Positions 4,414 through 63,158 of a DNA stretch of 64,000 nt are shown here, piece by piece. The notes below the pieces were generated by a model that worked only from the letters and a program-made list of their open reading frames with translations, searched no databases and had not been told where the DNA came from. The translations under genes were made by a program, and so were the position numbers. Each line of letters begins with the position of its first letter. The stretch's first letter is position 1. Source of the DNA: a virus; IMG/VR virus record IMGVR_UViG_3300013233_000436, positions 4,804 to 68,803 of that record. One strand, given 5' to 3'.

Positions 4414-4420
4414 AGCTACA

Positions 4421-5151: not shown

Positions 5152-5759
5152 TTCGTGTTCTAAACCTTTACGCTGGTTTGGGTGGCAATCGCAAGCACTG
5201 GCAGAGCGTCGAGGTGACGGCGATTGAATGGGATGAAAAGATAGCGGCTGTTTACGCCGCCAACAACCCAAAGGATATGGTTGTTGTAGGTGATGCCCAC
5301 GCATACCTTTTGGCGCACCACTCCGAGTTTGATTTTATTTGGAGTAGTCCGCCCTGCCAGAGCCATTCCCGTATGATCCGATCTGGGAAAAATAGAAAAC
5401 CCCGATACCCCGACTTAAGACTTTACGAAGAGATCCTTTTTCTAAAGCATAATTTTAAGGGCGATTGGGTTGTTGAGAACGTGAAGCCATATTACACGCC
5501 GCTGATTGAGGCGCAGGCCGTTGGCAGGCACTTGTTTTGGTCAAATAAGCCAATTGCCGCCACCGAGGTTAAACAGCCCAAGGGGTTTATCGGTAAAACC
5601 ACTGTTGCAGGGAGCAGGGAGCTTAAAGATTGGCTTGGGATTCACTATGAAGGCAATCTTTATTACGATAGCAATCATTGTCCAGCCCAAGTTTTGAGAA
5701 ATTGCGTCCACCCCGATTTGGGGCGACAGGTGTTTGATAGTGTTTTGCAGGAAAAATAG
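5148..5759 (+). CDS. Compact DNA cytosine-5 methyltransferase
   Basis: Motif I LNLYAGLGG, catalytic SPPCQ, ENV, motif X LRNCV. Confidence 0.9.
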   Translation: MIRVLNLYAGLGGNRKHWQSVEVTAIEWDEKIAAVYAANNPKDMVVVGDAHAYLLAHHSEFDFIWSSPPCQSHSRMIRSGKNRKPRYPDLRLYEEILFLKHNFKGDWVVENVKPYYTPLIEAQAVGRHLFWSNKPIAATEVKQPKGFIGKTTVAGSRELKDWLGIHYEGNLYYDSNHCPAQVLRNCVHPDLGRQVFDSVLQEK

Positions 5760-5768
5760 GGGGATTGA

Positions 5769-6167
5769 GTGAAAGATGAAGACATGGCGGCTTTGATAGC
5801 CGATGGATTTCAGCGTATCGAGAGAGCTGTCAAGGAAAGTGGCCACGATATTTGCCTCCAATTAGACCGCATTGGCGATAAGGTGGGGCAATCCGATTCC
5901 TTGGTGGCAATGCTTCTAAATGAAATTCTTGATGAGAAAAAATCAAGAGAGCTTAAGGCAAAGGTTGCTGCTGATATTGAGCCTGAATCGGAGCTGGTTC
6001 GGGTTCGTGATTCAGGCTTGACTTGTGGAGCTTGCCAGTTCGGGAGAAAGATTTTTGGCCAATTTGTTCCAGTTATTGAGTGCGGCAATGAGGATGGCTT
6101 GAGCTATGGTAAAAATATTAGTGAATATGCGGATGGCTGCAAACACTGGTTGCCCGTAGATGATTAA
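5769..6167 (+). CDS. Hypothetical protein with C-terminal 4-Cys module
   Basis: CGACQF...C...CKHW. Confidence 0.6.
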   Translation: MKDEDMAALIADGFQRIERAVKESGHDICLQLDRIGDKVGQSDSLVAMLLNEILDEKKSRELKAKVAADIEPESELVRVRDSGLTCGACQFGRKIFGQFVPVIECGNEDGLSYGKNISEYADGCKHWLPVDD

Positions 6168-6206
6168 TTGGTAAAATAACAACCGGATAATGAGAGGCAA
6201 TGAATA

Positions 6207-6722
6207 ATGAGCGATAAAACACTGAGTAACGAAAACGTAAGTCAGGCGAAAGCGGCCACAAGTGATCTAAAACTGTACGGCGATGGCGACTTATTCGTTT
6301 TGCTGTCTAAAGCTTCCTCTGAATCCGAGGGCTGGATGAAAATCACCAAAGCCATGCAAACACCAACAGGTGTGGTTATTCAGGTAACTACTCAGCAAAA
6401 GAACCCTGATGGCTCTTATTCGCTTGCCGAAGCTCTGACTACTGTTGAGGGCGTGAAACTGTGCTTGGACGGTGACGTGCCTGCGCTTGTGCCAATTGGG
6501 TATATAACAGGCATACAGAAAATTTGGAGGGATAAACACTATCCAGAAGCTTTTCCCCCAGATAACAATGATGTAATGCCATCTACTTGTGGAACTTGCC
6601 AGTTTATGTCTAAGCGATCTAAATCTGTTTATGTATGTGATGCAGGAGATGGACTGCTCAACGAGCGTAGAGTATGTAGAACAACCGTTTCTTGCGCTTA
6701 CTGGTCTAAGAGAGAATCCTAG
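6207..6722 (+). CDS. Phage hypothetical protein with C-terminal 4-Cys module
   Basis: N-terminal KASSESEGWMKITKAM..QVTTQQ domain typical of phage ORFs; CGTCQF...C...CAYW tail. Confidence 0.65.
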   Translation: MSDKTLSNENVSQAKAATSDLKLYGDGDLFVLLSKASSESEGWMKITKAMQTPTGVVIQVTTQQKNPDGSYSLAEALTTVEGVKLCLDGDVPALVPIGYITGIQKIWRDKHYPEAFPPDNNDVMPSTCGTCQFMSKRSKSVYVCDAGDGLLNERRVCRTTVSCAYWSKRES

Positions 6723-6910
6723 TGAATAAAGATATTTCAGCTCTGATGACCATATCCTCTGCATTAGGCAACATGCAGGGACTACCTGCTCCACGACCAA
6801 CAACCAAGTCTTTACGGTCGCCAGAGTGTGTGGCTGAACTCAAATCTAAGGCCGAGGCTAAGAGGGTTAGAAAGGCTGCTGCTCGTGTGAGAAACTTGCC
6901 CGATGCTTAA
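6722..6910 (+). CDS. Small basic hypothetical protein
   Basis: KAEAKRVRKA basic tail; abuts upstream stop. Confidence 0.5.
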   Translation: MNKDISALMTISSALGNMQGLPAPRPTTKSLRSPECVAELKSKAEAKRVRKAAARVRNLPDA

Positions 6911-6935
6911 TATGAAACACACCGGAGAGTAAAAA

Positions 6936-7370
6936 ATGCACGTTGACGATTACATAGACCAATGCCTTAGTTCAGGTGATGAAGCAACCGTAAACATAGG
7001 CAAGGCGCTAGACTTCTTTAGGCGGAAAGCCTCATACATAAGCTATAATATGGATGAAGTTCCAGTCTTATATGTAGAGCATGAGGGGTGTACATACCGT
7101 GTTGTTCACGCCAGCCATAACGGGTGCATTGGCCTTAGTTTAGATCTCGCAGCTTTACCTCTAACGAGGATAGATAGTCAGGTCATGGCTGATGATCATG
7201 ATGTGACTTGCTGGGAATTGGTTGGCTGCCTGGGATCTATCGAAGTCAACACAATCGTCAATAATAGGGTTGACCCACTTGAAATGATGAAAGATATTGT
7301 AGAACCCCCTGCTTACTACTTGAAATTCAATAAACAAAACCGAGGGATGGCAAGAACTAATGGTTGCTGA
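6936..7370 (+). CDS. Hypothetical phage protein
   Basis: GGAG SD and ATG. Confidence 0.6.
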   Translation: MHVDDYIDQCLSSGDEATVNIGKALDFFRRKASYISYNMDEVPVLYVEHEGCTYRVVHASHNGCIGLSLDLAALPLTRIDSQVMADDHDVTCWELVGCLGSIEVNTIVNNRVDPLEMMKDIVEPPAYYLKFNKQNRGMARTNGC

Positions 7371-7686
7371 AACCGTAAGTACCAGTGAAATTATATCAAG
7401 CTTTCTTGTTATGCCTGCAATCCTTTTGGGGGCTTTTGGTGTTCAATGGCTGTTCCTGTCAATCTTCCCGCCTAAATCTGGCGAGCAGTGGTTCAACGAC
7501 ATTCAAACCACGCTGAGGGGTTTTATGACTGACGCACAACGGGAAGAGGAGCGCGTAGAGCTTGCTAAGGAGAAAGCTGATCGAGAAGAGGCGCTTGCTA
7601 AAATTAGGGCTACCTGTGCTGAGTTGGAAGAAGCGTTAAACACTTGCCCTTGCCCATCTAACGATGACACCGAGGAACACTACTAA
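7360..7686 (+). CDS. Membrane-anchored coiled-coil protein
   Basis: One TM helix followed by E/K/A-rich helix. Confidence 0.55.
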   Translation: MVAETVSTSEIISSFLVMPAILLGAFGVQWLFLSIFPPKSGEQWFNDIQTTLRGFMTDAQREEERVELAKEKADREEALAKIRATCAELEEALNTCPCPSNDDTEEHY

Positions 7687-8115
7687 ATGAACGAATTTAA
7701 ACTACCAAAACACCAGAGCAAGATCATACTCTTTGCTTATGCAGTCTTTGGCTGATTTTTGATGTTTTCCACTTTTGGCTTGGCTTATTTCTTCGCGTTT
7801 GATCGGTTCTTTTTCAGTCATGATTTTAGGTCGAGAAGGGCGCTTTTGCGATGGCTTGAGGGTGCGGAACTGTCAAATTATTTATACGCAAGCTGTGACG
7901 ATTACACTTTTTGGCAGATAGCCGACAATGTGATGCTCGATCATCGTGGCGATGGTGAGCCAACCTATTTTATGATATATAGCACCCCATCTTATACGGG
8001 GGGTGCTGACTGCATTGCGTTCGATTGGTTTAGCCGCCGATGCCGAAAACGCATTTTGGCAAAGATTGAAGAGCAACTAAACCACCGCGAAACAAGGGTT
8101 CAACATGAAAAGTAA
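7687..8115 (+). pseudogene. Membrane protein interrupted by in-frame TGA (7753-7755)
   Basis: ATG 7687 directly follows upstream stop and is in frame with ORF 7759..8115; TGA splits IILFAYAVFG*FLMFSTFGLAYFF. Confidence 0.5.
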
Positions 8116-8824
8116 TTTTAAATCATCCTTAAGTCACGTTCTGGTTCACGAGGGTGGATGGGCAAATCACCCTAAAGATCCAGGCGGGGCAACCATGAAG
8201 GGGGTGACATTAATCACCTTTCGGCGGCACTTTGGCAAAGACAAAACCAAGAGTGATCTACGCAATATCACTGACGAGCAATTAGAGAAGATTTACCGTA
8301 AGGGTTACTGGGACAAGTGTCACTGTGATGATTTGCCATCTGGACTTGATTACGCCGTCTTTGATGCCGCTGTTAACTCAGGGTCACGCCGTAGCGCCAA
8401 ATGGCTACAGTGGTCTATTGGGGCTGTTGCTGATGGCCATATCGGAGACAAGACGATTGCAACTCTAAGAGGCTGTGATGCTGTTGGTCTGTGTCGTTCG
8501 GTAACGGGTGCGCGTCTTGCATTCCTTCAAAAGCTCAGAACGTGGGCTACTTTTGGTGGCGGGTGGGGTAAGCGGGTTGCGATGGTCGAGATTATCTCTA
8601 CTCGAATGGCGGACACCAGCAACCGATCATTGCCTCCAACGATAAAAAAAGGCTCAAAAGGTGGGTGGGTACTGAAAGTTCAGTCATTCTTTGGAGTCAA
8701 AGAGAGTGGTAAGTTTGATTCTGTCACCGAGGATGCGCTCAAACTGTGGCAAGAGGCCAATGGATTGACGGTTGACGGCATAGCTGGCAAAGAATCATAT
8801 CGTGCAATGGGCTTGATTGAGTAA
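8105..8824 (+). CDS. Endolysin, glycoside hydrolase family 108 with peptidoglycan-binding domains
   Basis: HEGGWANHPKDPGGATMKGVT, DAAVNSG, GWGKR; C-terminal WQEANGLTVDGIAG PG-binding repeat. Confidence 0.92.
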   Translation: MKSNFKSSLSHVLVHEGGWANHPKDPGGATMKGVTLITFRRHFGKDKTKSDLRNITDEQLEKIYRKGYWDKCHCDDLPSGLDYAVFDAAVNSGSRRSAKWLQWSIGAVADGHIGDKTIATLRGCDAVGLCRSVTGARLAFLQKLRTWATFGGGWGKRVAMVEIISTRMADTSNRSLPPTIKKGSKGGWVLKVQSFFGVKESGKFDSVTEDALKLWQEANGLTVDGIAGKESYRAMGLIE

Positions 8825-8888
8825 TCGCTTGCGTTAATTGTTTTTTTCCTGCAATATCGGCCTCTCAAATACACAAGAGGTGGTTATT

Positions 8889-9176
8889 GTGAGCGGATCA
8901 AATAGTGAAATAGCGGTGCGTGGCGTTGAGCAGGAAGAGAGCTTTGATGATGAATCGGTATGGTTGTCGGCGTTGATCTCCGATTGTTGTTTGATTGCCG
9001 TAACATCGGGCGATAATGACCGGATCAAGCGATTGATTAAGAAGCGTAAAAAAACAATGTCACGCCGATGGAAGGCGACAAACTCTGTTCTGAAAAAATT
9101 AATCAAATCCCGTGATGTGTCATCGGTTGTTCGATTGGGGTTTGATGAAATATCACCGCTTGACACGAATCAATAA
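8889..9176 (+). CDS. Hypothetical protein
   Basis: GAGGTGG SD before GTG 8889. Confidence 0.5.
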   Translation: MSGSNSEIAVRGVEQEESFDDESVWLSALISDCCLIAVTSGDNDRIKRLIKKRKKTMSRRWKATNSVLKKLIKSRDVSSVVRLGFDEISPLDTNQ

Positions 9177-9187
9177 TCTGCTATCCT
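9160..9187 (+). promoter_or_regulatory. Sigma70-type promoter
   Basis: TTGACA (9160) - 16 nt - TATCCT (9182) with extended -10 TG. Confidence 0.55.
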
Positions 9188-9193
9188 TCTCTG

Positions 9194-9244
9194 CAACACG
9201 TTTTCCTCTCCAGTGTTAGAGCCTCCTTTATGGGGGCTTTTTTT
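9194..9244 (+). ncRNA. Candidate ~50-nt small RNA with anti-SD loop and intrinsic terminator
   Basis: Promoter upstream; hairpin AACAC/GTGTT with loop GTTTTCCTCTCCA; terminator AGAGCCTCC-TTTAT-GGGGGCTTT-TTTT; no ORF. Confidence 0.5.
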
Positions 9245-9285
9245 ATGCCTGCAATAATTGGCCGCGCAAGGCGACCAACATCAAA

Positions 9286-9729
9286 CTACCAGGGGATTGT
9301 CATAATCACCTTGACCCCAAACATATCGTAAGTGTTCGAATCTTTTCCCACCACGCAACTGTGATGCTGATAAGTGCCTAAAACATCCACGTTTGGAGCG
9401 CCGATTAGGTGTTGGGTAAAGCCAAGATTTGAAGTCAAACTGTCCTCTGCAAACGCGCATTGTGGCGACTGCTTGCCTGCTGCATTGGTCTCGATACCTA
9501 AAAACACCTGACTGTATTTGAAATACTCAATCTCTGCACTGTTTGCAGGTTTGGAGAAAATGAGAAGCAAACCGCCAATGCCTCCCATTGCCAGCACCGC
9601 ATAGACAACACCCCAAACAGCGCCGTTTTTAACAAACGTCTTGAGGTTGCCGTGTTTCTTGTAGGCAAAAATCAAAACGCCCACTATGAGTATTGAGACG
9701 AATCCCAAAAAGATAAACAGATTTTCCAT
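9286..9729 (-). CDS. Membrane/exported protein
   Basis: Two N-terminal hydrophobic segments, two Cys, beta-rich C-terminus ending in W. Confidence 0.65.
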   Translation of the reverse strand: MENLFIFLGFVSILIVGVLIFAYKKHGNLKTFVKNGAVWGVVYAVLAMGGIGGLLLIFSKPANSAEIEYFKYSQVFLGIETNAAGKQSPQCAFAEDSLTSNLGFTQHLIGAPNVDVLGTYQHHSCVVGKDSNTYDMFGVKVIMTIPW

Positions 9730-9755
9730 GCTACGCCCTTCTTTGTTGTTATGGC

Positions 9756-12700
9756 TTACGCCGTTATTTTAACTCTCAAAAAATCATATTCTGTTTCGCC
9801 ATTGCTGGTAATAATGGTGTTTTTCAGTGTGTACGTTTTGCCCGATGTTCCACCAGCAAGAAAGATACTGGTTGTGTCGCTGCTGAACGACTCCACGCCC
9901 ATATCAATGCCGGTTTCAGCCTCCCATGTTGATTGAGATATTGAACTACCGGATACAGCCCGTTTTTTGAGCCAATCCTTCCATTCAATCTTGAAAAACT
10001 CACCGGAACCTTGGTGTTTTGAGGTGATCATATTTCTTGCCTTTGCCTTGAATTCTCTGCGTGTTGGGGTGATGCCGAAAGATCGAGTTGTTGCCAGCCT
10101 TATGAAGCTTCTTTTTGATGCGCTTCGGATTAGCGCCTTTTTGCCGTCATTCTTGCCGCCCAAGCAGTAAGTTGTGGCCGTTGAGGTAAGCCCCTGTTGA
10201 TTGGCGTGAATGCCGCAAACAGTGGAGGTAAAAGCGATAATTGAGGCCGATTCTTCGCCACCACTAATTGATATTGTGGCCTCAACCGGTTTAACCGGCT
10301 CCATTGCTTGGTCTTGGCTTTGCGCTGAAACATCGAGTGATAGCGTAAGAATTGTGCCAATGTTTGCGGTATTGGCCTGACTTGCCAGTATTTCAGTGAT
10401 GGCTTTGATGGCGGTTTTCAGTGTTGCTGTGTCGCCGTCTTTGGATGCAACCACGAGAGCCTTGTTCGAGGCGCTAACGGTGGCTGTGGCAAGGTTATCG
10501 CCTTGTCGGGCTACGATTGACGCAATGGCGGACGAATAACCCTCTAGGTCGCTTAAATCACTTCCTTGGTTGATGGCAATGCCTGCCACCGATGGTGCTG
10601 ATAGGGCCGCTATATTGTCGCCGCTTTTGCCTGTCACCGACGAGACCACAATGGATTGCCCTGTAATCCATGCGTTATCCTTTGCCTCTCCTGTTAGGGT
10701 TGCGCCTGACAGCAGGTTTATCGACACTGTAGCGCGGTTGTTTTCGCTTTGTGCTGATCCGGTGATGGTTGCCAGTGGGATTAATTTTGCAGGGGATGAT
10801 TGATCTGCGTTAAATCCTGAAACAGAGGCGATAGAGCCGCTTGCCATGTTTGCGGTGGCCACACCCTTGTCTATTCCATTGAGTGAATACGTTACCGCTG
10901 AAATAGCGGCAACCGATGCGGCTTGATCCTGTTGGCCGCCCACAATGTTGATGTTACCGGCGCTCACCTTGAGGCGTGTTTTATCGCCATTGCCAGAAAT
11001 TGAGAACAGGGATATAACGCTTTGAGTGACCGTAAACGCCGTGGTGTTTGGTTGTTCTGTTGGCGCAATGATCGGTCTTGCATATCCGGTAAGTGCGGCT
11101 GACAGGGATTGAGCCTCTTGCTTGCTGATTGCAGTCAGTGCCGCGCTTGGTGTTGCGAGATAAGCCGCGCTTTGCTCTTCCTGCTGCATCGGTATGGTTG
11201 CGCTGTTTGTGGCTGTCAATTGCCCAAATGATGCGTTTGCCTGTGTGCCAGTTATTGGCGTTACCACACTTGAAATGGCGCTAATGGTCGATGATTGCTC
11301 ACCCTGCTTACCGGCAAAAATGGCCGTTGTTGCTGATCCACTGGCAATACTTGATCCAAACGCGCCCTGTGTTACCGACAGAATGGCCGCTCCAGAGGAA
11401 AGCAATTTTGACGTTTGGCTTTCTTGCTGAATGGCTAGGCTTGATTGGGTGATCAACGTGTAAGAAAAGCTTACAAGTTCGTCGCCGGTTGCCATGTTTG
11501 CTGCTGCTGTGGTTGCTGAATTTGCGGCAATCTTTGAGGTGTTGCCCTCACTTATTGGCCACAATCCGATGGCGTTTATTGTGTTGGCAGACAGAGAGCC
11601 GATACCACTCTCTTGTGCTGTGTTCAGTTTGACGTTTAGACCACTGGCAATAGTGGAAGCTTGCCCCTCACTGGCAGCCAATAGGGACGTGCCTAACGAT
11701 GGCTTGAGTTGAAGCGCGGCATTGCCTGCTGTTTCGATTTGAACGACAGTGGCCACCACTTTGGGGGTTGCTGTGGCAGAGCTTGATTGATCTTCTTGGG
11801 TTGAATAAATGGCTGCAAGTGTCGCAGCATAGCCGCCAAGATTTGCCGCATCTGACCCCTGAGACACCACCACCCTTGCTGCACCACTTGTCAGAATAAG
11901 CCCCGCTTGGCTTTCACTTGAAACGCTGAACTGATAACTCACCGATGGGGTGATGGATAGAGTCGCGTTGTCGATGCCGGTTAAAGCCGAATTGGCAATA
12001 GCGGATGAATGAGAGCTGATTAATGCCCTGTCACCCGACTCAGTAAGAAGTATCGCCCCCGCCGCTGCTGAGTTGCCGCCAATGGTCGCTGTTGCCCCAT
12101 CCTGTTTGGCGCTGATAACCGTGCCAGAGAACAGGGATATTTTGCCGCTGTTGTCGCCGCTGGACAGGTTGGCTGATATTGAACTAAAAGGGCTTAGTAG
12201 CGCCGCTACTGAATCGCCGCCGCTTGCACTGGACTGATTGGCCGTGCTTCTTGCTGTGGCAGTCAGTGTGGATAACCCATCTTCCTGCTTGATCCCAATA
12301 AATGAACCGGCATGAGCTGCACCCGACAGGCTGGACAGTTGGCTTTCCTGCGCGACTCCGATGCTAACGCCGGTATCAATTGACAGTGAGGCTGTGTTGT
12401 TTTCGTTGGCGTTAAAAAACGCTGAAATTGAAACTGGGAGCAGCCACCCGCTCACTGAATCATCGTATTGATACGCCCTCATGCTGGAGCTTACGGACGG
12501 CGACACTGGTAACGATGCAGAGCCAACAGTGAGGCCGCTAACCGCGCATGATAGAGATTGATCGAGTGACAGATTAGCGGTATCCCCAACCAGTGCAGTG
12601 GACACAATGCCAGCACTCACAACAGCCGCAACAGTTGAGGCTATCCCGCTTTGCTGTATTGCTTTTGTGGATGCAGTGGATTTAGCAGTGGATTTAGCGG

Positions 12701-13817
12701 ATACCGTGGTGGATTCACTGGATATTGCGGTGGATGCGGTGGATTTTTGGCCTATCCCGACCATTGCACCCTGATCCTGTGATCTGGATAATACAACGGC
12801 GTTGGCCGATATGACTGCATCTTGCCACACACCAACAACAGCAAAAGCTTCAGGGCTTGACTGTGCCGCAAAATAAGCCGCCTCACGATCAGGTGATACG
12901 GCGTAGTTTGATATTGATATTCCGGCAATATCGCAAGCAGGCCAGTCGGTATCACCAAAACGGAGACCGAAATTAGCAAACCCCGCCACAATGCCCGGCG
13001 GTATATTGGCTCCACTGACCCTCGAAACCTCTGTGCCATTGGCGTAGAGAATTAGGTCTGTGGTCACATCATCGAAACTTACCGTTACCTTGTGTGTTCC
13101 GGCTGTTGTGCCTGGAACACCCGCAATTTTAGCACCCCAATCGTGCTTTACAGACCAATCGGGGAATTTCCACTCAGCCCTAAGACAATCCTCTGTGTCA
13201 TCAACACCACCAATATTGGCAAGCGTTGCGCCGCCATCATTACCAGCCGCAAGATCGGAAAACCACAAGGAGACCGTGTATAAATACGGATTAAAGCGGT
13301 TTGCCCCAAACCCGATACCTTGGGAGCCGTCGAGAAAGTAACCCGTACCCATTGGGGTTTGAGTCCTTGCAGGCGCAAGCCCCCCAAGAGTTACAATGCC
13401 GTCAACCCCTGCTGGACTTGAATCTCTAACGGTGGTGTCGGGATTGCCGGTTATTTGGCTTGGTTCGCAATGTGCAGTGACGGTGTTATCAGCCCAAACA
13501 GCGCCGGGATTTTGCAGGCTGATTGCTGTTGCATTGCCGATGTAAGCATGGATAAGGGTATCAGTCGATGCGGACAGTAACGGAACGCGAACAAACGCCA
13601 AAAGGTCGCCTGAAACCTCATTGAACCGAACTATTTCAAATGGGAGTAGCGTGTCATCGGGGAGTGTGAAAACAATATCGGCACCACTCGGTTGAGCGGT
13701 TGCCGCCAATATTGAATCAGCATTGATCTTTACAGGTAATTCAAAACCCGTCTGATCTACAGCAATAGAGCCTGCTGGAACGGTGATTACCGCATATTTT
13801 GAGTATCCAGCAAGCAT
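9756..13817 (-). CDS. Large virion fibre/adhesin: DUF2341 + LamG/ConA-like N-terminus, Ala/Ser/Thr-rich stalk, C-terminal fibre-adaptor-like domain
   Basis: ADIVFTLPDDTLLPFEI...AFVRVPLLSASTDTLIHAYIGN (DUF2341); YTVSLWF/LILYANG (LamG); IEWKDWL...STW...IFLAGGTSGKTYTLKNTIITSNGET tail. Confidence 0.7.
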   Translation of the reverse strand: MLAGYSKYAVITVPAGSIAVDQTGFELPVKINADSILAATAQPSGADIVFTLPDDTLLPFEIVRFNEVSGDLLAFVRVPLLSASTDTLIHAYIGNATAISLQNPGAVWADNTVTAHCEPSQITGNPDTTVRDSSPAGVDGIVTLGGLAPARTQTPMGTGYFLDGSQGIGFGANRFNPYLYTVSLWFSDLAAGNDGGATLANIGGVDDTEDCLRAEWKFPDWSVKHDWGAKIAGVPGTTAGTHKVTVSFDDVTTDLILYANGTEVSRVSGANIPPGIVAGFANFGLRFGDTDWPACDIAGISISNYAVSPDREAAYFAAQSSPEAFAVVGVWQDAVISANAVVLSRSQDQGAMVGIGQKSTASTAISSESTTVSAKSTAKSTASTKAIQQSGIASTVAAVVSAGIVSTALVGDTANLSLDQSLSCAVSGLTVGSASLPVSPSVSSSMRAYQYDDSVSGWLLPVSISAFFNANENNTASLSIDTGVSIGVAQESQLSSLSGAAHAGSFIGIKQEDGLSTLTATARSTANQSSASGGDSVAALLSPFSSISANLSSGDNSGKISLFSGTVISAKQDGATATIGGNSAAAGAILLTESGDRALISSHSSAIANSALTGIDNATLSITPSVSYQFSVSSESQAGLILTSGAARVVVSQGSDAANLGGYAATLAAIYSTQEDQSSSATATPKVVATVVQIETAGNAALQLKPSLGTSLLAASEGQASTIASGLNVKLNTAQESGIGSLSANTINAIGLWPISEGNTSKIAANSATTAAANMATGDELVSFSYTLITQSSLAIQQESQTSKLLSSGAAILSVTQGAFGSSIASGSATTAIFAGKQGEQSSTISAISSVVTPITGTQANASFGQLTATNSATIPMQQEEQSAAYLATPSAALTAISKQEAQSLSAALTGYARPIIAPTEQPNTTAFTVTQSVISLFSISGNGDKTRLKVSAGNINIVGGQQDQAASVAAISAVTYSLNGIDKGVATANMASGSIASVSGFNADQSSPAKLIPLATITGSAQSENNRATVSINLLSGATLTGEAKDNAWITGQSIVVSSVTGKSGDNIAALSAPSVAGIAINQGSDLSDLEGYSSAIASIVARQGDNLATATVSASNKALVVASKDGDTATLKTAIKAITEILASQANTANIGTILTLSLDVSAQSQDQAMEPVKPVEATISISGGEESASIIAFTSTVCGIHANQQGLTSTATTYCLGGKNDGKKALIRSASKRSFIRLATTRSFGITPTRREFKAKARNMITSKHQGSGEFFKIEWKDWLKKRAVSGSSISQSTWEAETGIDMGVESFSSDTTSIFLAGGTSGKTYTLKNTIITSNGETEYDFLRVKITA

Positions 13818-38980: not shown

Positions 38981-39592
38981 ATGGCCGTGAGTCGTTCTAC
39001 CTATCTGTCATTCGACTACGAAAAATTCAACGAATCAGGCTTAAAAAAAGTCATAGCTGAGTTTAAAAAACACGATGTTTACGTTACCGGCGTGGTTGCA
39101 ACCAACAAGCCCAAGCGAAAGCAGGGTGTTCAGACCAAAAAGGCCGAATTGTTCTTTAAGGACGGTCAAAAACTAACGCTCCAAGTGACCGCTCAAGGCG
39201 CTATCTTTCAGGTCGCGGTTAACGGTCGAGTTATCCCCATTCGATCCATCAACAACCTCAAGAAAGCCGTCAAAGAGGTGTCAGAGAAGATCCTCAAAAA
39301 CAGCCCCGCATTCCAGAAAGCCCAAGCGCGAAAAATGGCCAAAGCCATCACCGAGCCGGTAGTGGAAAAAAAGAAGGTGGTCAACCTTGCGAGTAAAATC
39401 AAAGCCCTTGAATCTGAAATCACATCATTTGAAGAGACGGCCTCTGACTTGCAGCAGCAGCGCGACAAACTGACCGAAGAATCGCAAACGGTCGAAGCGT
39501 CGAGAGACGACATTGAAAGCAAGCTGCTGATTGAAGAAGATCGAAACAATCAGCTCAAAGCCGAACTGAAACAGCTCAAGGAAAACGCATAA
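38981..39592 (+). CDS. hdf: Hdf, DarA N-terminal-like protein (start may be GTG 38987)
   Basis: FEKFNESGLKKVI..F, FKDGQKLTLQV...IFQVAVNGRVIP plus coiled coil; precedes darA. Confidence 0.75.
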   Translation: MAVSRSTYLSFDYEKFNESGLKKVIAEFKKHDVYVTGVVATNKPKRKQGVQTKKAELFFKDGQKLTLQVTAQGAIFQVAVNGRVIPIRSINNLKKAVKEVSEKILKNSPAFQKAQARKMAKAITEPVVEKKKVVNLASKIKALESEITSFEETASDLQQQRDKLTEESQTVEASRDDIESKLLIEEDRNNQLKAELKQLKENA

Positions 39593-42387
39593 TGAATAAA
39601 ACCATAATCTCCCTCAATCTTGACCTGTTGCCCAAGGGCTTCACAGATTCCGAGTTGAACAGCATTTACTATGATCTGTCCGCTACATCATCTGACCAAG
39701 ACGATCTATTAGAGGCTCCCAGTTTTGCGGTTCTTGATGCTGCCATTAACACCGGCACAGAGATGATTCTTGACAGTGTTGAGGCTAAATACAGGACACT
39801 CCCAAGGGTTCTAAGGTTTTTTAATCACAAGCTTTCTAAGCAATTGGTCACTCAAAGCAAAGGCCCACTTAATTCCAATGGCCCTGTTGAGATCGGAGAC
39901 CCAAAGAAAAGCGCAGGCACAGCCATCGTTACGGCGCGATTCCCTGTCAGTGATGGCCAATACATTACCGCAATGTTTCATGCCCCTGATATGGACCCCC
40001 AAAAGATCAATCCAGACGATACCCTGATTGCCTTTCGTTGGCTTCTGAATGGGCGTGACATTACCCATGTTGTCACCCCTGCATCTAAGGGCGGTACAAT
40101 TCAGGATATAAGCCTTGATACTGTCACAAAGCGACTCGCTCAATTGGCTGAAAAAAATACAATAAAATTCACTGCAAACAGAAAACGTGCAGAGGAGCAA
40201 AAGGCCAAACTCGAAGAACTTGCCGCAAAATCAGAGCAGAATGCCGGTATCGTTTCAGACTTGAACGAGGAAGTTATCTCACTTAATGAGACAATCGACT
40301 CAACAAACAGAAAGGTGACGAAAAAGAGCAAGGCTCTGGAAGATTTGACCTCTGAAAATGACGCTTTGCAGTCTGAAATTGATAACTGGAAAGAGAAGGT
40401 TGCGGCTAAAGCAAAAGCGGCCACATCAAATAGGCCGCCAATGCCATCATCAAGTAATGGTGCAATCAGCTCTGACGATGCCAATGCCGCCGATCTTGTT
40501 AGGGTGAAGCTGGAAGAGCGCATTGAGCGACAAAAGAACATGAAGGCTGCAAACAAGATCATAAAATCCAAAAAAGACGTGAACAGTCGCCTCGCCTCCG
40601 AACTTGGTCTTTCTGGATCTGAAATTGAAGATCTGGTTAATCCCAGGCACACCGCAACCCCTGGATACCAATCATTTACGCTATCCAACAACAATGCAGA
40701 GATCAGGCGGCTTAGAAAGCGCATGGAGGCGCTGGAAAAATTAAGCGCAGAAGAGGATCGTGAGTTTGATTTTGATGGAGGCACAGTTGAGGTTGATACC
40801 GGAGACAATCGGATCAAGATTTATTACACAGTCAAGCCTGATGCAGATGCAAGGAAAGAGCTTAAGCGCAATGGCTTTAAATGGAGTCCAACGAACGGCG
40901 CATGGCAGAGGCAAATAACCCCAGCAGCAAAATATTCAACAAACCTAATCACTGGTGTTGATGTTGACGATGAAAGCCAAGGTGCTGGCGCTGGCCCCGG
41001 TGTTGACGTTGATTCTGCTGCTGATGCTGAAAGCCAAAACACCAACCAAGTAGACCCAATTGCCGCCGTTGATGAAAAGCATAAGTTCAATGGCGCAACC
41101 GATGATTTCAAATCATGGGTTTTTGAGTCAATTGATAAGCCTGACTACAGCCCATTTTTATCAGCAGTGACGCTCGATGAAGCCGCCAAGAAAAACGGCC
41201 TTGAAATTTCAGGCTGGGATTATCCTGGAGTTACTGATGGGAATATCGCCACGATAAAAAACAATGGCTCAAGTGTTGGCTACATTGATATTGGCGACGA
41301 TGGAAAGTCGATGGTGTTTAATACCGATGGCAGCAGAGCGATGAGTGACATCTATTACACAGAGGATCTTGGTGATCTTGCTGTTTTTGTTGAGGCTTTG
41401 GCGAAAACAGCCAACCAACCAGCCGTTGACCCGACTCAAGGCGTTGAGCAGCCACCGCTTATTGGATCAGAAAAACAAATTGCGTGGGCTGAAAAAATCA
41501 GAGCGAAAATAACCCCCATACTGAGACAGGCCGCATTGGTGAAATTGGAGCCACCAAAACAAAAAGAAGCCCCTACTGGCAGGCGGCGAAGGGTGAGAGG
41601 CGCTCAAGCAGCATGGGATGATAAATCAATCGTCGAAGCCTTGGAAGCCATAAAAATGGCAATCAATGCGGATCAGGCAGGATTCTGGATTGACAGCCGC
41701 GACGCACACAAGAAAATAGCCGACCTCGATTACAAAGGCGTGACTAAAGAAATCGGTCTTGCTCTCGAAGGGTATTACGAAAATGATGCTCTGAGCTGGA
41801 ACAAGAAAGCACGAAGGGCTGGAGCAGAGATGCTAAAACAAGGTGAAGCCTTGTCAGACCAAAGCGAATATGCCGATGATCTGCCTCCCAGCAAAAGAAA
41901 GCAAATTGTGTTAGAGCATCTGAAAAAGCTTTCGGAGATAACAAATAAAACCGAGCCGATGGATGCTTTGAGTAAAATCAACAACCTCTTGGGTTCTTTT
42001 GGCAATGATGACAACCTTTCTGGTCGAGAGGTGGTTGGACTACTGTCCAGCAATTACAAAAGCAAAGAGCCGTCAACCCAACACCCTAAAAAAATGGTTC
42101 AGTTGGCGCTCATTGACATCAAAGACCAGATGGAAAAAGCCCTCGATAAAATGGATGGTGGGTCGCCCGACAATCAGGCGGAAAAAAGTGGTGATAGCGA
42201 CATCCAACAAAAAATAGCAGCCCTAAAGGATATGCCAGCAGAACAGTATGAGCAGGAAATGACCGCGCTTATTTCAGAGCTTGAGGCAAATGGTCGGCTT
42301 GCTGAATTTGAGGGTGAGTTGGTAAAAATCGACAAGTCGCGTGATGCAGACTTGATTGCCTTGGCCAACAAAACATTGGAGGGCTAA
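39592..42387 (+). CDS. darA: Defence-against-restriction protein DarA with inserted accessory domains
   Basis: FPVSDGQYITAMFHAP...DDTLIAFRWLLNGRDITHVV; coiled coil; LSNNNAEIRR/GFKWSP..AWQR and GSEKQIAWA inserts. Confidence 0.8.
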   Translation: MNKTIISLNLDLLPKGFTDSELNSIYYDLSATSSDQDDLLEAPSFAVLDAAINTGTEMILDSVEAKYRTLPRVLRFFNHKLSKQLVTQSKGPLNSNGPVEIGDPKKSAGTAIVTARFPVSDGQYITAMFHAPDMDPQKINPDDTLIAFRWLLNGRDITHVVTPASKGGTIQDISLDTVTKRLAQLAEKNTIKFTANRKRAEEQKAKLEELAAKSEQNAGIVSDLNEEVISLNETIDSTNRKVTKKSKALEDLTSENDALQSEIDNWKEKVAAKAKAATSNRPPMPSSSNGAISSDDANAADLVRVKLEERIERQKNMKAANKIIKSKKDVNSRLASELGLSGSEIEDLVNPRHTATPGYQSFTLSNNNAEIRRLRKRMEALEKLSAEEDREFDFDGGTVEVDTGDNRIKIYYTVKPDADARKELKRNGFKWSPTNGAWQRQITPAAKYSTNLITGVDVDDESQGAGAGPGVDVDSAADAESQNTNQVDPIAAVDEKHKFNGATDDFKSWVFESIDKPDYSPFLSAVTLDEAAKKNGLEISGWDYPGVTDGNIATIKNNGSSVGYIDIGDDGKSMVFNTDGSRAMSDIYYTEDLGDLAVFVEALAKTANQPAVDPTQGVEQPPLIGSEKQIAWAEKIRAKITPILRQAALVKLEPPKQKEAPTGRRRRVRGAQAAWDDKSIVEALEAIKMAINADQAGFWIDSRDAHKKIADLDYKGVTKEIGLALEGYYENDALSWNKKARRAGAEMLKQGEALSDQSEYADDLPPSKRKQIVLEHLKKLSEITNKTEPMDALSKINNLLGSFGNDDNLSGREVVGLLSSNYKSKEPSTQHPKKMVQLALIDIKDQMEKALDKMDGGSPDNQAEKSGDSDIQQKIAALKDMPAEQYEQEMTALISELEANGRLAEFEGELVKIDKSRDADLIALANKTLEG

Positions 42388-42389
42388 AC

Positions 42390-45300
42390 GTGAAAGCAAT
42401 CCTTGACGGCATGATGTTGACTGAAAGACGCGCCATAAAAGAGGTGATTCGCTCAAATATTGCAAAGCTTATGGGTGATTCAGATCAGGGTGAGGTGTCC
42501 GCCCTACTTTCTGGCAGCAAGGGCGGCAATGGGCTGGATGCCAAAGCCCTGCAAAACAGGGATAGATCAAGGGCAAGCTACCTCTCCCAGATGAAAAAGA
42601 TTGCTGATAACCCCGACTATGACCGAGTGAGTACCAGCAAAACACCTGACACAGGTGCGCCGATGGTTTTTGTTCGCGGAGTTGTCATACCAAAAACGCA
42701 AACGGGAAAAAAAGAAACCATAACGATGGCGGACGGCAAGGGCGGAACTGTAAAGATTCCAGCCATTTACGCCGTCATTGAAGCCAAAAAGATCATTGCA
42801 AGCCACACCTCAAGCGGCGACACAGTGAAGGAGTATGGCGGGAAAACCGGCATTATGGCGCTTAACAATGGCCGAAGTGCTGCACTAAAAAAAGCCTACT
42901 CACAAGGCACTGCAAGCGGCTACAGGGACGCTTTGCTTGAAAACACCCAAGAGCATGGGGTTAGCCTAAAAGCCATTGAGGGGCTAAAAGAGCCTGTTTT
43001 GGTGCGCGTGTTTTCAGAGAGTTCCCTCGATGGCGTAAAAGATGCCGGTGCAGCGTCGAATGTTTCGGCGGGCGCGTCACTGTCATCTACAGAGCAAGCA
43101 GAATCGGATTCAAAGAAAATCAACAATGAAACGCTCTCAAAATACGCAGGCGGTGACATTAACGCAGCCCAAAACAGAGAGTTTGTTTCATCGTTCATCG
43201 ACTCTTTGGGCGGGATTGATGCAAACGGCGATATGTTAACAGCCGAAGGGTTTGTTTCTGCCAGTGGCATCAACCGGATTGAGGCCGCAATGGTATCAAA
43301 AGCGTTTGGTGACAGTGCAACATTGGCTGATCTATCAGAAAGCCCCGACAGTGATCTAAAAAGCCTTGGCAATGCCCTAAAGGATATTTCTGGACGTTGG
43401 GCTGTTATGGTCGATATGGCCAAAAGTGGCGCTATATCACGCTCAATGGATGTGACAAAGCAGCTAAACGAAGCGGTGGCGATTGTCCGAAAATCAAGAC
43501 AGACAAACACCAAGGTTTCAGACCTTGTAGCCCAAGATGATATTTTTTCTGGATCAACAGATCCGGTTGCAAAATCGCTAATCAACCTAATGTACCGCGA
43601 CGGTGGATCAGGCCGAATTCGAAGTGCCGCCAACATTCAAAAGGCACTACACGCCTTCATAGATCAGGCTATGGCCACAACAGATGGCGCTGATATGTTT
43701 GGCTATGAGGCCGACCCCAAGGAGTTGATGGAGCAACAAAAAGCCGCTCTCGAAGCCGAAGAAGTCACACCGCAAACATCCCTATTTGATTCCATTGCTG
43801 GACTGTTTAACTCATGGTCAGAGGCACTAAACAAGGCTGAATTTATCAATATGATTTTTGACTCCACGATCAACAAGGCCGCAAAACAAGTGAACACCAA
43901 CCCGACAGAGGGGCAAATTGAGGCTGGAAACTACGCCAAAGGCAAGGTTTCTATTCAAGGTTTGCGTGTGGTGATCGAGAATCCAAAAGGCTCCACTCGA
44001 TCAGGCGTGAACAAAGACGGGAAACGCTGGGAGTCGAAAATGAAGGCTCATTACGGCTACTTTTCCAGCACCGAGGGCAACGATGGCGACGAAGTGGACG
44101 TGTTCCTTGGTGATCTTGCCGAATCAGCAAGCCCTAAAATATTTGTGGTTAATCAGGTTGATGAAAAAGGCAAGTTTGACGAACACAAGGTGATGTTCGG
44201 ATACAAAGACCTTGCAGCGGCAAAAGCCGGATACCTAGAAAATTATGAGGCCGGATGGCGTGGCCTTGGCTCAATCAAGGAGATTGCTTTGGATAAATTC
44301 AAAGAGTGGGTTCACTCAACCGGAACAAAACAAATTCTTGACTCTGCCAGTGGCGAAATGGGTATTGTTGAGCGCATGAGAATCAAGGGTTTGATCCGTT
44401 CGGGAATAGCTGCATTGTCGGACGACAGTATCGGCATTGCTGAACGCCTGAAAGTCAAAGCAAGCCTAAGAGCGAATATTGCCCTACTTGGTGGCAGACC
44501 AATAAGCGCCGACCCTTACGAGGCGTACAAGGCCAATATTTCAGCAGCAGAAATGAGGCTGAAAGCTGCATCGAGCGCAATGCACAAATTCCCAAAACTT
44601 GCGAACGGCCTAACTCCAGACGACATAAAGCGCACAACGGAGTTTAGGGAGAAAAAATTAGAAAAGGATCTTGCGTTTGAAGCTGTAAGGAAGATAAATA
44701 TCGCCACCCCCAATGAACTCAAGAAAAGGGCGACAGAGGAGCGGAGAGAGGCGAAAATTGCCAAGCTAAACAGCGAAAAGCCGCTAATCAACATGGAAAA
44801 CCTGCCAAACATAGGTGACGACTACAACAAGCCCGAAAACAAAAAACTCGACGCGAAAGAGATTGCCAAAAAGCTACGGAAGCGTTTTAGGGATGCCATC
44901 AAAAGCGGCGACCTCCCTAAGGGTGTGAATTTCAGCATCAAAATAAGTCGGTATTCAGGTGGTCAGAGCATTAACCTGAGAATCAAGAAAATACCCAATT
45001 CAATGAAGCTCCTTAATGATGAATACGTTCTCTGGCAAGATACCAAGGTCGATCAACCCCCCATCGTTCCAGAGCGATTCACCAAAGAAACCGAAAACCT
45101 TATTGAGTTTTTCAAGAGTCACATTCAGTCGTTTAATTTCGATAAAAGCGGCCCAATGACCGACTACTACAATGTTAATTTCTACTCTGATGTTAGCGTT
45201 GAATATGGCCTTGTGCGGGAAAAAACGGCTGAACAGTTGGCGGCGCTTAAGGGTGAGGGCAGCGTACCAATAAGCGAACCCCTGTACGGAAAAGGCGTTG

Positions 45301-53492: not shown

Positions 53493-53520
53493 CTTGAATC
53501 TCCAGTGTTTTTAATGTGGC

Positions 53521-53781: not shown

Positions 53782-53882
53782 TTTGGGTCTCCAGTGTTTT
53801 TTTAATTCCAGCTCACCGTTGAGCCGATGAGTGAATATTAGACCCCTCAAATATAAAACGCAAGCGGTTTTTTAGAATAGTT

Positions 53883-59388: not shown

Positions 59389-59405
59389 TTTGTTTTCCTC
59401 AAAAA

Positions 59406-60964: not shown

Positions 60965-60983
60965 ATCATCCTCTCCAGAGAAT

Positions 60984-62769: not shown

Positions 62770-63158
62770 GTGAAAAATTACCAGAAACAACCATATCACC
62801 GAATGTTTGCGATATTGTTAGAGAGTCTTTAACAGTGAGGGGCTACAGCGGCCTCTCAAACAAGGTCAAGGCGTGTTCCTGCGACATCAGCAGCCTTGCC
62901 CCTTGTGGTGATATTCATGGCGACTGTAGGGCATTTTTCATGGTTCGGGAAGGTGGGCTTGAGCTTGGATACACACCAAGCAACCTTCGAGCCTTGCAGC
63001 AGCAACATGGACTGTCCAATTCAGAGCTGTCAGAGATTTCTGGAGCGACGATAACAACGGTCTGCAACTGGCGAACTGGATTAGATAAAGACCATCATCA
63101 CGGAATGCCGCACCAACGATGGGTGCAGCTACTTGGTAAATTGGAGGGGGAAAAATGA
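62766..63158 (+). CDS. ELGYTP-type HTH protein 2 with Cys-rich N-terminal domain
   Basis: LELGYTPSNLR..LSEISGA..TVCNW..HHGMPHQRW. Confidence 0.75.
   Translation: MSEKLPETTISPNVCDIVRESLTVRGYSGLSNKVKACSCDISSLAPCGDIHGDCRAFFMVREGGLELGYTPSNLRALQQQHGLSNSELSEISGATITTVCNWRTGLDKDHHHGMPHQRWVQLLGKLEGEK

What the first reader, a model, noticed from the sequence alone, without database searches (positions are those of the whole stretch)
9160..9246. Candidate phage sRNA presenting an anti-Shine-Dalgarno loop complementary to leaders of several phage genes
Seen: TTGACA-16-TATCCT promoter, then about 50 nt with no ORF: hairpin AACAC/GTGTT exposing TTTTCCTCTCC, then a strong terminator. The core matches ribosome-binding regions beyond a bare SD: 11 nt TCTCCAGTGTT at 53499 and 53788, 10 nt TCCTCTCCAG at 60969, 9 nt GTTTTCCTC at 59392 (all leaders of minus-strand genes), and 14/16 with ACACCGGAGAGTAAAA at 6919. 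Inference: a trans-acting translational repressor of early/recombination genes or of host mRNAs. Alternative: the same bases are a minus-strand leader for a 9-codon ORF.
Basis: partly seen in the sequence, partly recalled or inferred. Interest (0 to 1): 0.7.

Follow-up and report, generated by a model that had tools for sequence, protein, structure and literature searches.

The report
Candidate phage small RNA mirroring ribosome-binding sites
At the end of a phage's lysis operon sits what looks like a tiny (about 52-base) RNA gene whose exposed hairpin is the mirror image of the phage's own typical ribosome-binding site, so it probably damps translation of several phage genes, but no expression or conservation data could be obtained.

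Summary
TTGACA-16-TGc-TATCCT (9160-9187) sits 7 nt upstream of a 5-bp hairpin (9195-9217) with a fully unpaired 13-nt loop, GUUUUCCUCUCCA. A 9-bp terminator plus U7 (9218-9246) follows directly.

The unit ends a long plus-strand operon (GH108 endolysin, then a conserved 95-aa ORF) and is convergent with the tail-fibre genes. The terminator therefore needs no special explanation.

Two features do exceed chance:
- **Promoter:** this quality arises in 20 of 20000 local shuffles. It shares the form TTGAnA-N13-15-TGCTAT with the only two other such sites in the window, a PL-like early promoter and a second promoter-terminator mini-unit.
- **Complementarity:** the complement of the 23-nt hairpin shares 9 nt or more with 5 of 84 translation-initiation regions. 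That is matched by 2 of 2000 flank-shuffled anti-SD controls and 0 of 84 real leaders, and it ranks first of 330 non-leader GGAG sites.

The phage is a distant P1-like marine phage-plasmid with no usable relatives, and no sequencing run was listed, so neither expression nor conservation could be tested.

Best reading (0.45): a new, unverified member of the phage trans-acting anti-RBS small RNAs.

The parts
8889..9176 (+). 95-aa ORF, last gene of the plus-strand operon, following GH108 endolysin 8105-8824. Its last codons contain the -35 hexamer.
   Evidence: RBS AAGAGGTGG then GTG. Coding log-odds +7.5, against +0.6 for the overlapping minus-strand ORF. One protein homologue, P0002, 79% identical with conservative substitutions.
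9160..9187 (+). Sigma-70-type promoter-like site: TTGACA, 16 nt, TGc-TATCCT (extended -10). Predicted start at about 9195.
   Evidence: Shares TTGAnA-N13-15-TGCTAT with the sites at 61046(-) and 63697(-).
9195..9217 (+). 5' hairpin: 5-bp stem AACAC/GUGUU and 13-nt unpaired loop GUUUUCCUCUCCA. The whole 23 nt is the antisense image of a translation-initiation region (upstream AACAC box, SD, spacer, GUG).
   Evidence: structure; complementarity statistics and alignment.
9218..9246 (+). Intrinsic terminator (9 pairs, 5 G-C, loop UUUAU, then U7). Ends both the operon and the predicted 52-nt RNA. No U-tract on the minus strand.
9170..9199 (-). Minus-strand reading of the same bases: GGAGAGG, 6 nt, then GTG opening a 9-codon ORF. 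It is in frame with, and separated by one TGA from, the non-coding-looking minus ORF 8834-9166.
   Evidence: TGA ends 25 of 84 called genes. Coding score.
42371..42393 (+). Predicted pairing site: leader and GTG of the ddrB-ParB/InPase-domain gene 42390-45959. Best accessibility-corrected energy, -16.2 kcal/mol.
63139..63158 (+). Predicted pairing site: leader of HTH-paralogue gene 63155-63391 (-14.9 kcal/mol).
53499..53509 (-). 11-nt exact complement in the leader of gene 53154-53492 (-13.7 kcal/mol over the extended duplex).
53788..53798 (-). 11-nt exact complement in the leader of gene 53521-53781. This leader is a near-duplicate of the previous one.
60969..60978 (-). 10-nt exact complement in the leader of gene 60743-60964, the first gene downstream of the PL-like promoter (-11.3 kcal/mol).
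59392..59400 (-). 9-nt exact complement in the leader of the 407-aa gene 58165-59388, in the ERF/YqaJ recombination operon.
39579..39587 (+). 9-nt exact complement in the leader of the DarA_N-domain gene 39592-42387.
6919..6934 (+). 14-of-16 complement in the leader of gene 6936-7370, in the same plus-strand operon (-9.7 kcal/mol).

Best explanation
This is a small RNA gene embedded at the 3' end of the phage's long plus-strand (early-to-lysis) operon.

How it is made:
- A constitutive-looking extended -10 sigma-70 promoter has its -35 inside the last codons of ORF 8889-9176.
- It starts transcription at about 9195, and the operon's own intrinsic terminator stops it at about 9246, giving an RNA of about 52 nt.
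- The same 3' fragment could also arise by processing of the operon mRNA.

What it looks like:
- The 5' 23 nt form a weak hairpin.
- Its always-open loop (GUUUUCCUCUCCA) and its arms together are the antisense image of the phage's consensus translation-initiation region (AACAC box, UGGAGAG Shine-Dalgarno, A-rich spacer, GUG).

How it probably acts:
- The loop nucleates pairing with Shine-Dalgarno regions of a subset of phage mRNAs.
- Pairing then spreads into the arms and occludes the ribosome-binding site, repressing translation.
- Predicted sites, in order of energy: the ddrB-like gene 42390, gene 63155, the twin leaders 53154 and 53521, PL-proximal gene 60743, then 58165, 39592 and 6936.

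Shown: the sequence features and their statistical excess. Inferred: transcription, stability, pairing in vivo and the regulatory outcome.
For: Promoter:
- 10 of 12 matches with TG.
- Only 3 such sites occur in the 68.8-kb record, against 0.83 +/- 0.92 in shuffles; 20 of 20000 local shuffles reach it.
- The other two sites are a PL-like promoter at 61046(-), facing a PR-like one at 61081(+), and a promoter at 63697(-) that is also followed by a terminator. All three share TTGAnA-N13-15-TGCTAT. That is 3 matches against 0.12 expected, but the pattern was derived from these sites, so the test is post hoc.
- A systematic scan of the window for a promoter of at least 9 of 12 lying 5-150 nt upstream of a terminator returns 3 units. 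Only two are strong: this one and 63697-63628.

Structure:
- The predicted start coincides with the base of the 5' hairpin.
- The loop is unpaired with p about 1, and the terminator has U7.

Complementarity beyond a bare Shine-Dalgarno:
- 5 of 84 leaders share 9 nt or more (11, 11, 10, 9, 9).
- 2 of 2000 flank-permuted controls keeping the CCTCTCC core reach this. With duplicate leaders collapsed, 4 of 2000 reach the observed 4.
- For the mean of the five best duplex energies, 0.6% of 500 controls are as good.
- 0 of 84 real leaders, used as pseudo-queries, reach 5.
- The site ranks 1 of 330 non-leader GGAG sites; the next best has 3.
- All 3 genome-wide matches of 10 nt or more lie in leaders.
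- The alignment shows the complement is essentially the consensus of these leaders, including the start codon.

Precedents:
- Lambda LPR1/PreS has as its 3' end an operon terminator, tL2a (bioRxiv 10.1101/2024.10.31.621285, section 8 read).
- The c4 RNA of P1/P7 blocks a ribosome-binding site through loop sequences (review PMC12197685, passages read).
- This phage is distantly P1-like.
Against: - No expression evidence. No sequencing run could be listed, so this was not testable.
- No conservation evidence. The element and its neighbours have no relatives in any DNA collection searched.
- The single protein homologue of the upstream ORF (P0002) has a different C-terminus (LES... instead of LDT...). 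The TTGACA hexamer cannot be preserved letter for letter there.
- The terminator is fully explained as the end of the operon.
- The 5-bp stem is not significant by itself.
- Sites with at least 10 of 12 promoter matches are, as a class, no commoner than in shuffles (13 against 11.6 +/- 3.4).
- The predicted targets have no common function or timing: virion Dar genes, early genes and unknown genes.
- Gene starts come from my own crude caller.
- The host, its Hfq and its promoter preferences are unknown.
Confidence: 0.45

Rival explanations
1. Plain operon end. The region is only the 3' UTR and intrinsic terminator of the plus-strand early-to-lysis operon. The promoter-like hexamers, which fall on Leu-Asp-Thr codons and the stop region, and the resemblance to leaders are coincidences. 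No separate RNA has a function.
For: - The terminator lies 42 nt after the stop of a real gene, at a convergent junction, where a terminator is expected.
- Sites with at least 10 of 12 promoter matches are not enriched genome-wide (13 against 11.6).
- The stem is weak.
- There is no conservation or expression support.
- The finding was picked out of a very large scan, so rare coincidences are expected somewhere.
Against: - Two independent features would both have to be chance: local promoter p of about 0.001-0.01 and leader complementarity p of about 0.001-0.003.
- The promoter belongs to a three-member class whose other members sit in sensible places.
Confidence: 0.25
2. The minus strand is the meaningful one. 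The bases are a translation-initiation region (GGAGAGG, 6 nt, GTG) in the 3' part of the tail-fibre operon transcript. It would serve a 9-codon mini-ORF, or be the fossil of a gene start left at a module junction, or act as a decoy or operator for a factor that binds leaders.
For: - The minus-strand sequence aligns as a complete leader with a start codon.
- The mini-ORF exists and is in frame with minus ORF 8834-9166 across one TGA.
- No minus-strand terminator separates it from gene 9286-9729, so it would be transcribed.
Against: - It resembles other leaders more than any of the 84 real leaders resemble each other: 0 of 84 reach its count. That is odd for an ordinary or decaying leader.
- The minus ORF behind it scores as non-coding (+0.6), and the plus ORF is the conserved one.
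- TGA is an ordinary stop here (25 of 84 genes).
- This reading does not explain the plus-strand promoter or the plus-strand-only U-tract.
Confidence: 0.12
3. A 3'-UTR-borne anti-RBS element without a promoter of its own. The hairpin acts while attached to, or after being processed from, the operon mRNA. Its abundance would then follow lysis-operon transcription, and it would shut down other phage genes late in infection.
For: - The complementarity statistics are the same as for the best explanation.
- It sits in the 3' UTR of the operon.
- Lambda LPR1/PreS is found at an operon terminator and is processed (10.1101/2024.10.31.621285, section 8).
Against: - It leaves the good promoter unexplained.
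Confidence: 0.1
4. Cis-antisense insulator. The short plus-strand RNA pairs perfectly with read-through transcripts of the convergent tail-fibre operon and triggers their cleavage, protecting the lysis genes from antisense transcription.
For: - The operons are convergent and no minus-strand terminator was found in 8000-10500.
- Perfect complementarity follows by construction.
Against: It does not explain why the sequence mirrors leaders elsewhere in the genome. There is no direct evidence of read-through.
Confidence: 0.05

Closest known systems
c4 antisense RNA of phages P1 and P7 (immI region)
   Same: A short phage RNA whose loop-exposed sequences pair around a ribosome-binding site and block translation (review PMC12197685, passages read). 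The present phage is distantly P1-like: its major capsid protein is about 30% identical to P1 gp23, and it carries DarA_N, ddrB-ParB and DarB-like genes.
   Different: - c4 lies in the same operon as its target and is cut out of a precursor (my recollection, not from a call). This unit has its own promoter and sits at an operon's 3' end.
- Its predicted sites are scattered in trans.
- No match to an Rfam C4 family in the gathering scan of the window or among the 12 weak hits in 9100-9320.
Lambda LPR1 / PreS
   Same: A phage sRNA whose 3' end is a terminator of an early operon (tL2a), with a GC-rich stem plus poly-U. It is short (about 88 and 68 nt) and pairs with several mRNAs (bioRxiv 10.1101/2024.10.31.621285, abstract and section 8 read).
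   Different: PreS mainly targets host mRNAs and enhances dnaN translation. Here the predicted action is repression of phage leaders. Sequence similarity was not tested, because no PreS sequence was at hand.
3'-UTR-derived sRNAs with a promoter inside the upstream coding region (such as MicL and DapZ; recalled, no call)
   Same: The promoter overlaps the end of the upstream CDS, and the sRNA shares the mRNA's terminator.
   Different: Those are chromosomal, longer, and have conserved seeds and proven targets. None of that is established here.
CU/C-rich-loop anti-Shine-Dalgarno sRNAs (RsaE/RoxS, 6C; recalled, and named in earlier scan notes)
   Same: A pyrimidine-rich unpaired loop complementary to Shine-Dalgarno sequences, with many potential targets.
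   Different: Those are cellular families of Gram-positive bacteria with several C-rich loops. Here a single loop is present, and the complementarity extends over the whole initiation region, including the start codon.
RyhB (RF00057)
   Same: Best weak Rfam match: 25.9 bits, E 0.0054 for the 221-nt search, spanning 9192-9245. It is driven by CCAGU.UUA plus the terminator.
   Different: The score is far below the gathering threshold of 55 bits, the loop is 9 nt shorter than the model's, and the RyhB seed is absent. Not a member.

Membership tests
Trans-encoded base-pairing sRNA (enterobacterial Hfq-type architecture) | Own promoter | tested here: inconclusive
   Consensus-quality extended -10 site. 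No transcript data (one search listed no run).
Trans-encoded base-pairing sRNA (enterobacterial Hfq-type architecture) | Rho-independent terminator with a U-tail of 6 or more | tested here: met
   9-pair stem plus U7 at 9218-9246.
Trans-encoded base-pairing sRNA (enterobacterial Hfq-type architecture) | Accessible seed complementary to target mRNAs beyond chance | tested here: met
   Loop unpaired with p about 1. Complementarity exceeds three kinds of control. This is in silico only.
Trans-encoded base-pairing sRNA (enterobacterial Hfq-type architecture) | Seed and structure conserved in relatives | not testable with these tools
   No relative DNA found. The contig of the only protein homologue, P0002, could not be fetched.
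Trans-encoded base-pairing sRNA (enterobacterial Hfq-type architecture) | Detected transcript, Hfq binding and regulation of targets | not testable with these tools
   No run listed. Host unknown.
3'-UTR-derived sRNA with an internal promoter | Lies between the stop codon and terminator of an mRNA, with the promoter overlapping the upstream CDS | tested here: met
   Stop codon at 9174-9176; -35 at 9160-9165, inside ORF 8889-9176, which is a real gene.
P1/P7 c4 antisense RNA | Match to the Rfam C4 model | tested here: not met
   Only a tRNA passes gathering in the window. C4 is not among the 12 hits with E up to 10 in 9100-9320.
P1/P7 c4 antisense RNA | Encoded upstream of its target in the same operon (icd/ant) | tested here: not met
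   Nothing lies downstream on the plus strand; the following genes are convergent. The operon layout of c4 is recalled, not from a call.
RyhB (RF00057) | Score at or above the Rfam gathering threshold | tested here: not met
   25.9 bits against 55.
Cis-antisense RNA (oop or sar type) | Overlaps a gene or leader on the opposite strand | tested here: not met
   Opposite the unit lies only a 9-codon ORF in the 3' region after gene 9286-9729.
Lambdoid PR'-tR' unit (Q antitermination) | Short terminated transcript upstream of the late genes it controls | tested here: not met
   About 6 kb of convergent minus-strand genes follow (9286-15091). The unit lies after, not before, the lysis genes.

The most novel reading that the evidence does not exclude
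A 'master anti-initiation-region' riboregulator. A constitutively made 52-nt phage RNA has a 5' hairpin that is, in its entirety, the antisense image of the phage's own consensus translation-initiation region (upstream AACAC box, UGGAGAG, A-rich spacer, GUG). It would set a graded translational brake on a dispersed regulon: Dar anti-restriction genes, the first PL-operon gene, an HTH paralogue and a twin pair of unknown genes. The strength of the brake at each gene would be tuned by how closely its leader matches the consensus. This would be a trans-acting, multi-target counterpart of the c4 RNA in a marine P1-like phage-plasmid. It would work alongside a second mini-RNA (63697-63620) that is antisense to the replication-initiator leader.
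Probability: 0.2. Interest if true: 0.65.

Novelty: new member of a known kind. Interest (0 to 1): 0.45.

Why it matters
Phage-encoded trans-acting sRNAs are few, and nearly all come from enterobacterial prophages. An example from an uncultured, distantly P1-like marine phage that targets the phage's own ribosome-binding sites as a class would add a simple post-transcriptional layer to phage gene timing. It would also suggest that leader sequences beyond the Shine-Dalgarno core can be shaped by a riboregulator. The prediction is small and cheap to test: a 150-bp fragment, a northern blot and four reporter fusions. If instead it is only an operon terminator, nothing is lost beyond one false lead.

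Tried and rejected
Searches for relatives of the element:
- blastn of 8100-9750 against phages and plasmids: no match.
- Exact 21-mer in viral and genome contigs: 0 hits.
- Exact 19-mer in metagenome contigs: 3 hits. All lie in unrelated coding or GC-rich contexts and are chance matches.

Protein-anchored searches for syntenic loci:
- Endolysin gave 17 loci. The two closest (59-64% identity) have different genes downstream.
- ORF95: none in viral or genome contigs, phages or plasmids.
- gp147: none in viral contigs or plasmids; in phages, only 31-40% identical hits in Acidovorax phages.
- gp144: two marginal hits.
- Major capsid protein: none in genome or viral contigs. It is 39-41% identical to Vibrio, Photobacterium and Alteromonas phage-plasmids.
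- One of these, pCECT9189-2, was fetched over positions 1-50000 of 67344. It has a different lysis module and no comparable unit.

Other attempts:
- Sequencing runs: none was listed for 5000-14000. This is no evidence either way.
- Earlier scan notes: none on this genome or on this sequence.
- Shared operator-like words between the three promoters: none beyond the TGCTAT -10 region.

Rejected readings:
- Lambdoid PR'/tR' antitermination unit: the genes downstream are convergent.
- Bidirectional terminator: there is no U-tract on the minus strand.
- TGA recoding joining the mini-ORF to minus ORF 8834-9166: TGA is a common stop and that ORF scores as non-coding.
- Mimic of the 16S 3' end: only CCUC is shared. 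The 16S 3' sequence is recalled, not from a call.
Full report
**Context.** The window is bases 4804-68803 of a 68.8-kb linear IMG/VR virus record estimated to be 70% complete, with 47% G+C.
- The phage is distantly P1-like. The 539-aa protein 23613-25232 is about 30% identical to P1 gp23, which some of the matching records annotate as the major capsid protein.
- Genes 39592, 42390 and 45969 carry DarA_N, ddrB-ParB/InPase and SNF2-helicase (DarB-like) domains.
- The nearest capsid relatives, at 39-41% identity, are plasmid prophages of Photobacterium, Vibrio, Alteromonas and Spartinivicinus. A marine gammaproteobacterial host is therefore likely, but this is an inference.
- An ERF/YqaJ recombination operon runs leftward from a PL-like promoter at 61046(-). 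A small gene at 61139, weakly matching a transcriptional-regulator family, runs rightward from a PR-like promoter at 61081(+).

- TTGACA (9160-9165), a 16-nt spacer and TGc-TATCCT (9179-9187) are present. It is one of only two promoter-like sites the tool found in 8000-10500.
- Seven nucleotides after the -10, the sequence AACAC-GUUUUCCUCUCCA-GUGUU (9195-9217) forms a hairpin.
- It is followed directly by a 9-pair terminator and U7 (9218-9246).
- The 53-nt RNA folds at -17.2 kcal/mol (z = -3.6). In the partition function the loop is unpaired with p of 0.97 or more and the stem is formed.

**What the surroundings explain.**
- Plus-strand genes run without a convincing terminator from at least 760 to 9176.
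- The operon ends with two membrane-protein-like ORFs, a GH108/PG_binding_1 endolysin (8105-8824) and a 95-aa ORF (8889-9176).
- That ORF is a real gene. Its coding log-odds is +7.5, against +0.6 for the overlapping minus-strand ORF. A 79%-identical homologue with conservative substitutions exists in the large protein collection.
- Downstream genes are convergent: 9286-9729, then a 1353-aa tail-fibre-like gene.
- The terminator is therefore where an operon terminator should be, and the -35 hexamer lies in the last codons of ORF95.
- The U-tract is only on the plus strand, so this is a plus-strand terminator.

**Is the promoter more than chance?**
- As a class, sites with at least 10 of 12 matches are not enriched: 13 against 11.6 +/- 3.4.
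- Sites that also have the extended -10 TG number 3, against 0.83 +/- 0.92. In shuffles of 9120-9200 only 20 of 20000 reach this quality; 205 of 20000 do so without TG.
- The other two TG sites are the PL-like promoter and a promoter at 63697(-). That second promoter is followed after about 22 nt by a 7-pair terminator.
- All three read TTGAnA-N13-15-TGCTAT. This gives 3 matches against 0.12 expected, but the pattern was derived from these sites, so the test is partly circular.
- A scan of the whole window for promoter-then-terminator units returns 3. Only this one and 63697-63628 have strong promoters.
- My estimate is that the promoter is more likely real than not.

**Is the complementarity more than a bare anti-Shine-Dalgarno?** I called 84 genes with a simple codon-usage plus RBS caller and took positions -30 to +12 of each as its leader.
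- The complement of 9195-9217 shares 9 contiguous nt or more with 5 of the 84 leaders: 53154 and 53521 (11 nt each), 60743 (10 nt), 58165 and 39592 (9 nt each).
- It also aligns at 17 of 21 positions, two of the mismatches being wobble pairs, with the leader and GTG of 42390.
- Control A keeps the CCTCTCC core fixed and permutes the flanks. 2 of 2000 controls reach 5 leaders. Counting the twin leaders once, 4 of 2000 reach the observed 4. For the mean of the five best duplex energies, 0.6% of 500 controls are as good.
- The bulk counts are not different: 30 leaders at or below -12 kcal/mol, against a control mean of 30.0. The excess therefore lies in a few long matches and is not general stickiness.
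- Control B uses each real leader as a pseudo-query against the others. 0 of 84 reach 5 matches of 9 nt or more (the maximum is 4), 7 of 84 equal it at 8 nt or more, and 3 of 84 equal or beat it on energy.
- Control C scores all 330 GGAG-containing 23-mers outside leaders. The candidate ranks first; the next best has 3.
- Genome-wide, 5 of the 8 other matches of 9 nt or more, and all 3 of 10 nt or more, fall in leaders. Some enrichment of that kind is expected for any SD-containing word.
- With opening energies included, the best predicted sites are 42390 (-16.2 kcal/mol), 63155 (-14.9), 53154 (-13.7) and 60743 (-11.3). The mean over all 84 leaders is -0.5 +/- 5.7.
- The aligned leaders show that the minus-strand image of the hairpin is practically their consensus: AAAACACTGGAGAGnAAAAnATG.

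**Interpretation.** Two independent, individually unlikely features coincide at one terminator. This favours a small RNA of about 52 nt made from its own promoter and ended by the operon terminator.
- The open CU-rich loop would nucleate pairing on Shine-Dalgarno regions.
- The arms (anti-AACAC box and anti-GUG) would extend the duplex over the initiation region and block ribosome binding.
- Everything beyond the sequence features and their statistics is inference. I put this reading at 0.45.

**Rivals.**
- Plain operon end with coincidences: 0.25.
- The minus strand is the meaningful one: 0.12. GGAGAGG, 6 nt, then GTG opens a 9-codon ORF in frame with the non-coding-looking minus ORF 8834-9166 across one TGA, and TGA is an ordinary stop here (25 of 84 genes).
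- The same element acting from the operon's 3' UTR without its own promoter: 0.10.
- A cis-antisense insulator against read-through from the tail-fibre operon: 0.05.
- The minus-strand reading explains the resemblance to leaders poorly, because no real leader is as consensus-like. It explains neither the promoter nor the strand-specific U-tract.

**What could not be done.**
- No relative of the element exists in the DNA collections available.
- The closest endolysin loci and one related phage-plasmid have different gene orders and no comparable unit.
- The only homologue of ORF95 (P0002) is known as a protein from a 1,774-nt contig whose DNA I could not fetch. Its C-terminus differs (HPLESQPKK against SPLDTNQ), so TTGACA cannot be conserved letter for letter there. 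That counts mildly against the promoter.
- No sequencing run was listed.

**Comparison with known systems.**
- Rfam's gathering scan finds only a tRNA at 664-737.
- The permissive scan of 9100-9320 gives RyhB at 25.9 bits, against a threshold of 55, as the best of 12 weak hits. No C4 family is among them. The element belongs to neither family.
- In function it most resembles c4 of P1/P7, where loop sequences block a ribosome-binding site (review PMC12197685, passages). In layout it resembles lambda LPR1/PreS, an sRNA ending at an early-operon terminator (10.1101/2024.10.31.621285, abstract and section 8), and 3'-UTR sRNAs with internal promoters (recalled).
- It differs from these in acting in trans on several dispersed phage leaders and in mirroring a whole initiation region.
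- I searched the paper library once for phage-encoded sRNAs with anti-Shine-Dalgarno wording. None of the 15 papers listed (of 301 holding at least 3 of the 4 terms) contains the term 'anti-Shine-Dalgarno'. This one search does not establish that such an RNA is unpublished.

**Verdict.** If real, this is a new member of a known kind. Interest is 0.45.

Noticed in passing
window 63618-63697 (minus strand): A second promoter-terminator mini-unit. TTGAAA-16-TGc-TATAAT (11 of 12 matches, with TG) is followed by about 15 nt, the hairpin TGGCCGCCCGTTTTGCGGCCA and TTCTTTT, predicting an RNA of about 45 nt (MFE -13.8, z -2.4). It is antisense to the 5' leader of plus-strand gene 63699, which has weak PHROG hits to DnaD-like helicase loaders and replication initiators. 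Its -35 abuts that gene's ATG. It looks like an oop/CopA-type copy or replication-control antisense RNA. No Rfam family passes threshold; the best is Hrs13 at 19.7 bits against 52.
   Followed up: partly
window 61000-61140: Divergent early promoters: PL-like TTGATA-17-TGc-TATATT at 61046(-) and PR-like TTGACA-17-GAGAAT at 61081(+). The word AAAAAACCACT occurs once on each strand between and within them (an inverted repeat), making it a candidate operator.
   Followed up: no
window 39592-52487: A P1-type Dar anti-restriction module: a DarA_N protein (931 aa), a ddrB-ParB plus InPase-domain protein (1189 aa) and a 2172-aa SNF2/helicase DarB-like protein.
   Followed up: partly
window 52981-53800 (minus strand): Three small minus-strand genes sit inside a plus-strand block. 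The leaders of 53154 and 53521 share a 14-nt word (AAAAACACTGGAGA). The third gene (52981-53154, 57 aa) weakly matches a HicB-like antitoxin PHROG (E 0.0012).
   Followed up: no
window 62056-63600: Four tandem paralogous small genes whose products share an (E)LGYTP.NL...HTH-like motif. One matches a 'transcriptional repressor' PHROG (E 9e-08).
   Followed up: no
window 18187-18210: A strong plus-strand terminator (10 pairs, T6) directly after gene 17150-18181. Its 3' arm also contains CCTCTCC, but paired within the stem.
   Followed up: no
window 664-737: A phage-borne tRNA gene, the only Rfam hit at gathering threshold (63.9 bits).
   Followed up: no
window 9224-9230: The 5' arm of the terminator reads CCUCCUU, a second anti-Shine-Dalgarno-like word (AAGGAGG on the minus strand). 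It is sequestered in the stem.
   Followed up: no
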